DNA from: Octopus vulgaris
Lineage: Eukaryota
Direction: 5' to 3'
Length of the DNA: 64,000 nt
Assembly: GCA_951406725.2 (NCBI GenBank)
Contig: OX597814.1
Coordinates: 120,590,001-120,654,000 of the forward strand
Made by a program: the position numbers and the translations under genes. Under the pieces are notes generated by a model, which saw only the letters and a program-made list of their open reading frames with translations, made no database searches and was not told the DNA's origin. Of this stretch, positions 9,458-45,848 are shown piece after piece. How positions within the stretch are numbered: position 1 is the stretch's first letter; each line of letters begins with the position of its first letter.

Positions 9458-9528
<71 letters not shown>

Positions 9529-9603
9529 TGCAGCGTGGAAGGTGTTTATAAGCCATTTAAGAAACACACAAAAGCCGTTCGATTCACTCCAACATTTAAG
9601 TTT

Positions 9604-9657
9604 ACTTTGTCAAAATATTTTCGTCGCTAAAATCCGCGACCTGTTCACTGACAAAGT
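9604..9657 (-). ncRNA. Type I minimal hammerhead ribozyme, G3:C8 variant
   Basis: ACTTTGTCA-GTGAACA-G-GTCGC ggatttta GCGAC-GAAA ATAT TT-TGACAAAGT: 9-bp stem I, 5-bp stem II, palindromic AATATT stem III, UUU triplet. Confidence 0.75.
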
Positions 9658-9902
9658 CCGTGCTGCATCTAAGAAAGTAACAGTTAGTTCGTCATATATA
9701 TGTACGTATGTATGTGTGTATGTATGCATACATGTGTGTATGTATGTACGTATGCATGTACGCACATACGCCTGTGTATGCATGTATGTATGTATGTATG
9801 TATACATACATACATACATGTATGTATACATACATACATACATACATACATGCATGCATGCATACATGCATAACTGTTACTTTCTTAGATGCAGCACGGA
9901 CT

Positions 9903-9950
9903 TTGTCAGTGAACAGGTCGCGGATTTTAGCGACGAAAATATTTTGACAA
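9903..9950 (+). ncRNA. Type I minimal hammerhead ribozyme, G3:C8 variant
   Basis: TTGTCA-GTGAACA-G-GTCGC ggatttta GCGAC-GAAA ATAT TT-TGACAA. Confidence 0.75.
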
Positions 9951-10144
9951 TTTAAACTTAAATGTTGGAGTGAATCGAACGGCTTTTGTGTGTTTCTTAA
10001 ATGGCTTATAAACACCTTCCACGCTGCAATTGTTTTCGTTTCAGCACACGATCTCAGATCAAATTACTTGCTATGCGAGTACATCTCCGTAATATATATA
10101 TATATATATATATATACATACATATATAAATATACATATATATG

Positions 10145-44175: not shown

Positions 44176-45710
44176 ATACTTTGATACTTTGATAGGTTTC
44201 GGCCATTATTGGCCCAGGCCATGTCTAACTTAATAGCACCACCTGGTGAAGTCTTTCAAGTCAGAATTTGGGCACTATGGCCCACTCAAGTAGAGAGTTA
44301 TTGTTTACAGAGACATATCCGGGTGTAGGGGGTTTATCCGGGATTTCTTGAAGGAATCTGTCCAAAGACTTCTTGAACCCTATAGGGTCAGTTTCTGTTT
44401 TAATGTGTTTTGGTGTAATGTTAAAGAGAGCGGGGCCAATTGAGGTGAAATAATTGTGCCGTATTGTTGTTATGAGATGAGAGTGCGATTTTTGTTTTGG
44501 GCGGATGGCACGGGGCCCAAGCCTTGGATGTACCTTAAAGGTGATGCCAACATCATTTGGGCAATGCTGATGGAATATTTTCCCCATCATGCAGATGATG
44601 TAGCGCTCACGACGACGTTGGAGAGAATAGAGTTTTAGCTTTTCTAGTCGACCCCAATAGTCGAGGCCTGTCATGCCATCTATCTTTTTTGTGATTGCCC
44701 TTTGAGGTGCTTCAACTTTTATGATACCTTGTATTGTGTGGGGAGACCACAGTGGACAACAGTATTCAAGGTGGGGTCGGGCAAAGTGGAGAAGAGAAGG
44801 ATAATGGTGTGGATATCTCTCGACTGGAAAGTTCTGAGAATCCAGGAACACATTCTGCGGGCCATGTCAACTTTGGTGTTTATATGAGTGGCCCAGCTTA
44901 TGTTGTTGTCCACAATTACTCCCAAGTCTCTGATGTTGTTGGACGCCGCGAGAGTTTCACCTGAAGGAAGGGAGTATGGGAGTTTCAGGGCATCCTCTTT
45001 TCCAAAGTGGATTAGCTCAAATTTATCCTCGTTCAGCAGCATATTGTTTTTTTCTGCCCATTGGATAACAGCCAGTAGATCTGACTGAAGGCATGTCCGG
45101 TCACTCGCCTCATTTATGACCTTCTGTAGCTTGGAGTCATCTGCAAAGATTTTTATGTTGCTGTGCTTGATGATGTCATTAATGTCATTAATGTAAATGA
45201 TGAAAAGAAGTGGGCCCAGCACAGTGCCTTGCGGAACGCCACTACTGACTTTGGCTGGGCTTGATTTTACTCCTTCAACTACAACATGTTGAGATCTGTC
45301 TGTCAGGAAACACTTGATCCATTTCAGTAACTTTCCAGAGACACCAATGTTGGATAGTTTTTTCAATAGGATCTTGTGATCGACCCTGTCGAAGGCCTTA
45401 CTGAAATCAAGGTAGATGACATCGGTGTTGGAGCCCTCTCCCAAAGCTCTCAAAGTGTCCTCAAAGTGATGCAGGAGCTGCGTTAGGCAGTCCCTTCCAT
45501 TACGGAACCCATGTTGGTTGAAGATCAGCCGTCTGTTGCTTTCCAGAAATTGGGTTATTCGAGATCTCACCACCCTCTCAAATACCTTGATGATATGAGA
45601 GGTGAGTGAGATCGGACGGTAATTCACTGCAAGGGACTTGTTTCCCTTTTTGAAAACTGGGACAACAGACTGGGACAGAAGGTTTTTTGGAATATAGCCA
45701 GCATCCAGTG
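44170..45710 (-). mobile_element. 5'-truncated CR1/L2-like LINE, RT nearly intact with one frameshift near 44780
   Basis: ORF 44719-45627 (NYRPISLTS, QHGFR, YLDFSKAFDRVDH, GVPQGTVLGPLLF, FADDSKL) continues into ORF 44261-44851 (RPHLEYCCPLWSP); short tandem tail (TTTGATAC)n on +. Confidence 0.95.
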
Positions 45711-45724
45711 AGTATATATATAAA

Positions 45725-45848
45725 TATCACCGTGACCACCGTGACCGACCAGGCTATCAGATGTTGCTACACATCGCTGGTCGCAATGCGCTTCACATTG
45801 TTTTAGCCTTCAAATGATGCCACCCCGCTGGCTAAGCGAGCAGGCCAT
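45725..45848 (-). mobile_element. Short interspersed repeat fragment (probable retroelement 3' end)
   Basis: GC-richer block with a short tandem end (caccgtgac)2 between (TA)n tracts; family recalled from memory only. Confidence 0.35.

What the first reader, a model, noticed from the sequence alone, without database searches (positions are those of the whole stretch)
9604..9950. Natural G3:C8 compensatory hammerhead, present twice as an inverted pair
The core reads GUGAACA instead of CUGANGA. Both partners of the C3:G8 tertiary pair required in the active HHR fold are swapped, while stems I and II, GAAA and a UH site are retained. A compensatory double change argues for selection on catalysis. 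A strict CUGANGA pattern search would miss it. The UUU triplet is unusual.
Basis: partly seen in the sequence, partly recalled or inferred. Interest (0 to 1): 0.8.

Follow-up and report, generated by a model that had tools for sequence, protein, structure and literature searches.

The report
Swapped-core hammerhead in Penelope retrotransposon ends
The two mirror-image motifs are the ends of one truncated insertion of a very common Penelope-like jumping gene; its hammerhead motif, a likely self-cutting RNA, has one core base pair flipped (G-C instead of C-G) across thousands of copies, a natural variant of a known ribozyme that the standard RNA-family library missed.

Summary
Observation confirmed, reading partly. 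9524-10091 is one short, 5'-truncated insertion of a Neptune/Nematis-type Penelope-like element (PLE): two inverted 163-nt arms, a 58-nt tail on one arm, (TA)n on both sides. Longer copies carry RT plus GIY-YIG about 1 kb upstream. Each arm holds a minimal type I hammerhead with PLE hallmarks (extra base after A9, palindromic stem III). G3:C8 is family-wide (6459 of 7054 pattern hits). An older, decayed family shares it while stems change compensatorily; three related families have C3:G8, C3:G8 or U3·G8. That cross-family covariation, not the second arm, supports selection. Against strict catalytic selection: mismatched G3·G8 copies are about ten times above the neutral rate and occur in both arms of single insertions, a sister family fixed C9, and copy 5' ends do not pile up at the cut site. 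U17 is common in PLE hammerheads. Engineered G3:C8 is known to be partly active and natural U3:A8 is published. I found no natural G3:C8 in print but could not read the main PLE-variant survey (Lünse 2017). This scan noted U3:A8 PLE hammerheads in other genomes. Cleavage is untested.

The parts
9462..9523 (.). (TA)n microsatellite, left insertion target
   Evidence: sequence; (TA)n flanks most held copies
9524..9800 (-). left arm: 3' end of the element without tail (9524-9686 unique part; 9687 to about 9800 is the element's own microsatellite-rich 3' UTR, inner edge uncertain)
   Evidence: 96% to natural copy L005 over 9524-9828
9604..9657 (-). left hammerhead: G3 9648, C8 9643, U17 9613, 9-bp stem I owing to one private change
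9801..9870 (.). inversion junction, (TACA)n-like filler
   Evidence: does not match the element's own sequence just upstream of 9871; origin inferred
9871..10033 (+). right arm: 5'-truncated 3' end (pLTR) of the element
9903..9950 (+). right minimal type I hammerhead; predicted cut after 9944
9909..9916 (+). core G3 U4 G5 A6 A7 C8 A9 plus extra G (9a)
   Evidence: family counts
9917..9934 (+). stem-loop II, GUCGC/GCGAC, closing G10.1-C11.1
9935..9944 (+). GAA, palindromic stem III AAUAUU (likely dimer interface) and U17
10001..10090 (+). likely first 30 codons of the element's ORF, carried in the pLTR
   Evidence: 40% identity over 25 aa to the N-terminus of the 1309-aa ORF of the sister family, E 1e-4 pairwise
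10034..10091 (+). PLE 'tail', present on this arm only
   Evidence: 3' ends of 125 held arms cluster at 10030-10039 (44) and 10085-10094 (68); 10 of 10 close pairs have a tail on exactly one arm
10092..10115 (.). (TA)n microsatellite, right insertion target
   Evidence: sequence

Best explanation
The locus is a short double-ended insertion of a Penelope-like retrotransposon whose pseudo-LTR carries a minimal type I hammerhead with an old, family-wide G3:C8 core pair; the ribozyme is predicted to cut weakly after U17, likely only as a dimer or with help from the element's protein. Shown: element identity, anatomy, copy number, family-wide G3:C8 and covariation between families. Inferred: the element's RT/GIY-YIG protein nicks (TA)n, starts reverse transcription at two sites (10033 and 10091 equivalents) on uncut RNA, and stops early, giving two inverted arms with one tail. 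Inferred: in tandem source elements two hammerheads pair through the AAUAUU palindrome and cut 56 nt upstream of the ORF start. The flipped pair would keep the 3-8 Watson-Crick geometry that places the 2'-OH of residue 8. Inferred: this genomic pair is passive; its arms are on opposite strands, and a read-through RNA would be double-stranded rather than catalytic.
For: Element: 1407 first-look candidates, and the 40 scored are 99-100% identical, 14 of them in 7 divergent pairs. L005 has GIY-YIG (PF01541) with the hammerhead 995 nt after the stop. L069 has a 1025-aa frame with RT motifs (DKSG, GSMDVVSLYP, YVDD), a CX3CX2C linker and GIY-YIG. Two 3'-end clusters and the one-sided tail match the two RT start sites of PMC11167929 and the inverted/tail architecture of PMC8557442. 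Ribozyme: extra base after 9, G10.1-C11.1 and palindromic helix III are the PLE min-HHR traits of PMC4209133. 6459 of 7054 hits are G3:C8. With core columns excluded, the G3:C8 families F1+F5 split from the C3:G8/U3·G8 families F2-F4 at 100/99 support. Between F5 and F1, stem I, stem II, the palindrome and N7 differ while pairing holds. Related metagenome PLEs have C3:G8 (L121) and U3:A8 (L120). Engineered C3G/G8C partly restores cleavage in a PLE hammerhead and in general. The dimer fold scores -25.4 kcal/mol against 2 x -7.0 for monomers with A15.1-U16.1 closed.
Against: No cleavage or RNA-end data: all four runs laid were contigs. G3·G8 is 40 of the first 100 of 386 position-8 variants, against G-to-C in 7 of the first 100 of 209 position-3 variants (Fisher p 3e-8). 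It is present in both arms of 4 of 4 pairs fetched, so mismatched cores were apparently copied. Sister family F3 (3775 hits) has C9 in most of the first 100 listed and F4 has U3·G8. Only 2 of the 22 arms whose 5' end falls in 9915-9990 start at 9943-9945, so no peak at the cut site (most loci were chosen by core-containing patterns). The cofold MFE (-29.5) is a non-catalytic structure. PLE min-HHRs cut poorly in vitro, and cleavage was dispensable for insertion in vitro.
Confidence: 0.75

Rival explanations
1. The motif is kept as a structural or protein-binding RNA element of the PLE (for RNP assembly or RT start/stop), with little or no cleavage; the 3-8 pair matters for folding only.
For: Recurrent mobilised G3·G8, C9 in F3 and L120, an A3·C8 excess in F5 (11 against 2 G3·U8, p 0.02), no 5'-end peak at the cut, and no reads ending at the cut site in Anolis (PMC11167929).
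Against: U4 G5 A6, GAAA, U16.1-H17 and the palindrome persist in all five families and both metagenome PLEs, and the long-lived lineages keep a pair at 3:8. Protein-assisted cleavage was shown for a PLE hammerhead.
Confidence: 0.2
2. G3:C8 is a neutral founder accident amplified by transposition of a dead motif.
For: High copy number alone says nothing on selection; single-site variants in copies vary independently (0 C3:G8 among the first 100 position-3 variants).
Against: G3:C8 is shared by an ancient decayed family and the youngest one while surrounding stems changed compensatorily. The commonest state is Watson-Crick or wobble in 7 of 7 families examined.
Confidence: 0.04
3. The inverted pair is itself a functional unit at this locus, for example two ribozymes excising or processing a host RNA.
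For: Near-perfect arms.
Against: Such pairs are a routine insertion product: 9 close pairs in the first 100 hits and 14 of 40 best hits. The arms are on opposite strands and each carries one private change. A read-through RNA folds into one hairpin that pairs the whole motif.
Confidence: 0.01

Closest known systems
Minimal hammerheads of metazoan Penelope-like elements (Cervera and De la Peña 2014, PMC4209133; read: abstract, results, discussion and start of methods, parts 1-2 of 4, plus supplement file 2 parts 1-2 of 3; supplement file 1 not readable)
   Same: Type I, in the pLTR, extra base between 9 and 10.1, G10.1-C11.1, palindromic helix III, U17 frequent, opposite-strand pairs 100-700 bp apart, thousands of copies, natural 3:8 covariation (U3-A8 in Schistosoma Cercyon).
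   Different: Core pair is G3:C8. 0 of 56 rows in their Fig. S3 show it (53 C3:G8, 2 U3:A8, 1 U3·G8; counted by eye).
PAc (Anolis Poseidon) hammerhead and its engineered C3G/G8C double mutant (Frangieh 2024, PMC11167929; read parts 1-2 of 4)
   Same: Same core swap, PLE context, ORF start in the pLTR, two RT start sites bounding a tail.
   Different: There the swap is engineered, here natural. The linker points to Neptune/Nematis, not Poseidon. The predicted cut lies 56 nt before the ATG rather than 26 nt after it.
Natural core variants of hammerheads (Perreault 2011, PMC3088659; read section 8 and passages)
   Same: Natural compensatory change of the 3-8 pair.
   Different: The section read reports U3-A8 only; G3-C8 is a double transversion.
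Neptune/Nematis C-terminal-EN PLEs (Craig 2021, PMC8557442; passages only)
   Same: RT then CX2-5CxxC linker then GIY-YIG with CCHH, (TA)n targeting, inverted 5'-truncated copy, one-sided tail.
   Different: Tail is 58 nt rather than 30-40; Neptune versus Nematis not resolved here.

Membership tests
Hammerhead ribozyme (type I) | Three-way junction with stems I and II and U4 G5 A6, A9, G12 A13 A14, A15.1-U16.1, H17 | tested here: met
Hammerhead ribozyme (type I) | Literal C3 and G8 (CUGANGA) | tested here: not met
   G3 and C8; no Rfam hammerhead match
Hammerhead ribozyme (type I) | Watson-Crick pair between positions 3 and 8 | tested here: met
   G3:C8 in 6459 of 7054 hits; between-family covariation
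Hammerhead ribozyme (type I) | Self-cleavage after H17 | not testable with these tools
   only contigs could be laid
Hammerhead ribozyme (type I) | Loop I-loop II tertiary contact of extended hammerheads | not tested
   not modelled; PLE minimal forms are described without a defined loop 1
PLE minimal hammerhead | Extra nucleotide after 9, G10.1-C11.1, palindromic short stem III | tested here: met
   the extra base is G, while the published consensus is H, with one G row seen
PLE minimal hammerhead | Located in the pLTR downstream of a PLE ORF | tested here: met
   995 nt after the GIY-YIG stop in L005; L069
PLE minimal hammerhead | Cleaves as a dimer | not testable with these tools
   energy model only
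Penelope-like element, C-terminal EN | Single ORF with RT and C-terminal GIY-YIG | tested here: met
   PF01541 above cut-off; RT motifs read from the translation; Pfam RVT_1 not hit; one weak RT structure hit, E 2.6e-4
Penelope-like element, C-terminal EN | Inverted or tandem pLTRs, 5' truncation, optional tail | tested here: met
Neptune/Nematis clade | CX2-5CxxC linker before GIY-YIG and CCHH motif | tested here: met
   CQSNCAVC and C..C..H..H in L005/L069 (definition)
Neptune/Nematis clade | RT phylogeny with reference PLEs | not tested
   no reference PLE set was at hand
Non-LTR retrozyme | Head-to-tail tandem units each with a canonical hammerhead, no ORF (definition recalled; abstracts) | tested here: not met
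   dispersed, inverted, linked to an RT/EN ORF

The most novel reading that the evidence does not exclude
This PLE clade records a ribozyme's core base pair wandering through sequence space in nature: C3:G8, U3·G8, U3:A8 and an ancient fixed G3:C8, with unpaired G3·G8 lineages repeatedly mobilised. Uncut RNA is what gets copied, and a dead core can still be cut by an active partner in a dimer, so the pair can cross the two-step fitness valley. It would be the first natural G3:C8 hammerhead family and a natural test bed for compensatory evolution of an RNA active site.
Probability: 0.3. Interest if true: 0.62.

Novelty: new variant of a known kind. Interest (0 to 1): 0.4.

Why it matters
The 3-8 tertiary pair was proved with engineered swaps, and the natural swap I found in print is U3-A8. 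A natural G3:C8 family with thousands of near-identical young copies, an ancient relative and mismatched side lineages gives ready natural alleles. With them one can ask whether PLE hammerhead cleavage is needed for transposition, which is still open. It also shows that Rfam and CUGANGA descriptors miss whole high-copy families, so reports of PLEs without hammerheads may partly reflect the search pattern (inference). The inverted pair at this locus is ordinary.

Tried and rejected
Rfam: nothing at gathering score; only microsatellite-driven and other chance matches at E<=10, no hammerhead. Idea that G3·G8 is a basal intermediate between C3:G8 and G3:C8: not supported. G3·G8 rows lie scattered among G3:C8 rows in F5 and in the F1 subfamilies, and the arms aligned from the first 30 of 377 hits of the oldest F1 subfamily, chosen without regard to the core, showed no G8 (all on contig C1, where G8 is scarce). 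Copy 5' ends at the predicted cut: no peak. RNA evidence: no RNA holder listed on record; the four runs laid were contigs and cannot show ends. Metagenome relatives: 11 loci, 2 gave a motif at my score threshold and 9 none; many are short. Papers not held: Lünse 2017 and Przybilski and Hammann 2007; either may already describe natural or kinetic G3:C8 data, as may supplement file 1 of PMC4209133 and supplements of other papers that I did not open. Searches that found no natural G3:C8 report. The 2026 retrozyme preprint gave nothing relevant in a term search. A blastp was out of frame and a pairwise DNA alignment there misaligned the cores; neither was used. No earlier scan notes on this sequence or genome.

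Full report
Observation. The window has two inverted arms, 9524-9686 and 9871-10033, identical at 161 of 163 positions. Each holds a type I hammerhead-shaped motif. On + it reads stem I 9903-9908/9945-9950, G3 U4 G5 A6 A7 C8 A9 (9909-9915), an extra G (9916), stem II GUCGC/GCGAC, GAA, the palindrome AAUAUU (9938-9943) and U17 (9944). A scan allowing any Watson-Crick 3:8 pair found these 2 hits and none in 100 shuffles (thresholds chosen after seeing the motif). Rfam gives no hammerhead match.

What it belongs to. The arm is a high-copy repeat: 1407 first-look candidates, the 40 scored at 99-100% identity, 14 of them in 7 divergent pairs. Longer copies show the parent. In L005 the hammerhead lies 995 nt after the stop of a GIY-YIG frame. 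L069 has a 1025-aa open frame with RT motifs, a CX3CX2C linker and GIY-YIG; its first 50 or so residues come from an inverted piece. Pfam did not detect the RT; I read its motifs from the translation, and one weak RT structure hit supports it. The linker places it with Neptune/Nematis PLEs (definition in PMC8557442); no reference tree was built. The best named protein hit is from Octopus vulgaris at 58%. Runs under four organism labels hold the stretch; the four laid show no listed variant at positions 3 or 8 at the 3% threshold.

Architecture. The right arm continues into a 58-nt tail (10034-10091) that the left lacks, and both ends abut (TA)n. In 10 of 10 close pairs fetched, exactly one arm has the tail. 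The 3' ends of 125 held arms cluster at 10030-10039 (44) and 10085-10094 (68). This is the inverted 5'-truncated copy with one-sided tail described for PLEs (PMC8557442, passages), and it matches the two RT start sites measured for PAc (PMC11167929). An ATG at 10001 opens 30 codons homologous to the N-terminus of the sister family's 1309-aa ORF. The insertion is therefore 9524-10091, and the second copy is a by-product of one event, not independent evidence. The arms are on opposite strands, and a read-through RNA folds into one hairpin that pairs the whole motif.

Is the swap selected? Within family F1, the pattern with 3 and 8 free has 7054 hits; 209 differ at 3 and 386 have G3 but differ at 8, leaving 6459 G3:C8. 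This shows fixation only. Between families the evidence is better. F2 is mostly C3:G8 and F4 mostly U3·G8 (358 hits together, first 100 seen). F3, with 57% protein identity, is C3:G8 with C9 (3775 hits, first 100 seen). F5 is a very decayed family with G3:C8. All 59 hits give 28 G3:C8, 11 A3·C8, 11 C3:G8 and 9 others (counted by eye; G3/C3 against C8/G8, p 2e-7, though copies are not independent events). A tree of 55 hand-picked copies without the core columns splits F1+F5 from F2+F3+F4 at 100/99 (midpoint root; row L228 has a long branch and is unreliable). Between F5 and F1, stem I (GUGUCA/UGACAC against UUGUCA/UGACAA), stem II, the palindrome (AAUU against AAUAUU) and N7 differ while pairing holds. 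Two of 11 metagenome PLE loci gave motifs, one C3:G8 and one U3:A8, both with U17. As 53 of 56 published PLE rows are C3:G8, one old origin of G3:C8 is the simplest reading (inference).

Results against a strict reading. C8-to-G makes up 40 of the first 100 position-8 variants, while the strand-equivalent G3-to-C makes up 7 of the first 100 at position 3: about 154 against 15 copies. Four close pairs in the first 100 hits have G8 in both arms, confirmed in L146-L149, so the change likely preceded insertion; conversion between arms is not excluded, as one A3/A3 pair was also seen (L054). G3·G8 occurs on several subfamily backgrounds but was not seen on the window's youngest type, and it is not basal. 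Single C3G or G8C changes abolish cleavage in a PLE hammerhead, so these templates were probably catalytically dead yet copied. Copy 5' ends show no peak at the cut: 2 of the 22 arms starting in 9915-9990 begin at 9943-9945, while 38 of 125 begin at 9885-9894, upstream of the core (biased by how loci were chosen). Insertions that contain the core must come from uncut RNA, in line with PAc. The G3·G8 excess is unexplained: dead-core source lineages or a site-specific hot spot are both open.

Mechanism. Most likely the motif is a weak, conditional ribozyme. The palindrome lets two copies form stem III between molecules (modelled -25.4 kcal/mol against 2 x -7.0, though a non-catalytic cofold is lower at -29.5), as described for PLE hammerheads. 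The flipped pair would keep the geometry that places the 2'-OH of residue 8, and engineered C3G/G8C is partly active. In a dimer each core cuts the partner strand (established double-hammerhead model, recalled), so a dead core could still be cut, which may ease two-step swaps (inference). None of this is tested here.

Comparison and novelty. It works like, and by every sequence test except the literal C3/G8 is, a PLE minimal hammerhead (PMC4209133). U17 is common there (24 of 56 rows; C. gigas reads UUU), so the triplet is not unusual. Natural U3-A8 is published, and earlier notes of this scan found it in two other genomes (unchecked). Seven full-text searches found no natural G3:C8, but Lünse 2017 and Przybilski and Hammann 2007 could not be read. 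Of PMC3884650, PMC6765202, PMC8495972, PMC2920678, PMC10085705 and the 2026 preprint I saw passages only. Verdict: new variant of a known kind, interest 0.4.

Noticed in passing
G000, pattern hits; L089-L118, L146-L149: Mismatched G3·G8 cores are about ten times above the neutral transversion rate, occur in both arms of single insertions, and are unevenly spread (15 of 22 listed position-8 variants on C5, 14 of 56 on C1-C3). Unexplained.
   Followed up: partly
L071:7392 and 3775 hits; L120:2497: Sister PLE family F3 has canonical C3:G8 but C instead of A at core position 9 in most listed copies; a metagenome PLE has U3:A8 with C9.
   Followed up: partly
L074:8845 (+): A separate hammerhead with U3:A8 core and palindromic stem III inside what looks like a tandem unit of about 370 nt, retrozyme-like.
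   Followed up: no
window 9908-10021, run X12: X12 (RNA is a guess) shows A>G and T>C differences at 4-18% (for example 9979, 9999, 10018, 10021) that are near zero in the other three runs; compatible with A-to-I editing of double-stranded RNA from inverted arms, but there is no matched DNA run.
   Followed up: no
L045-L054; window equivalent 9885-9894: 5' ends and inversion junctions cluster 15-25 nt upstream of the core; this may mark the element's transcription start.
   Followed up: partly
L047, L083, L097, L136, L139: Two nearby copies or arms carry different subfamily alleles in loop II, suggesting two templates or recombination.
   Followed up: no
one search hits, family F5: A3·C8 (11) outnumbers G3·U8 (2), hinting at an A3·C8 sub-lineage.
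   Followed up: partly
window 44719-45726 (-): A 335-aa frame with RVT_1 (E 1e-31), a separate retroelement fragment, likely a LINE.
   Followed up: no
L069 ORF, window-independent: A 78-nt self-complementary stretch inside the ORF near the RT-EN linker recurs in all subfamilies (blast self-hits).
   Followed up: no
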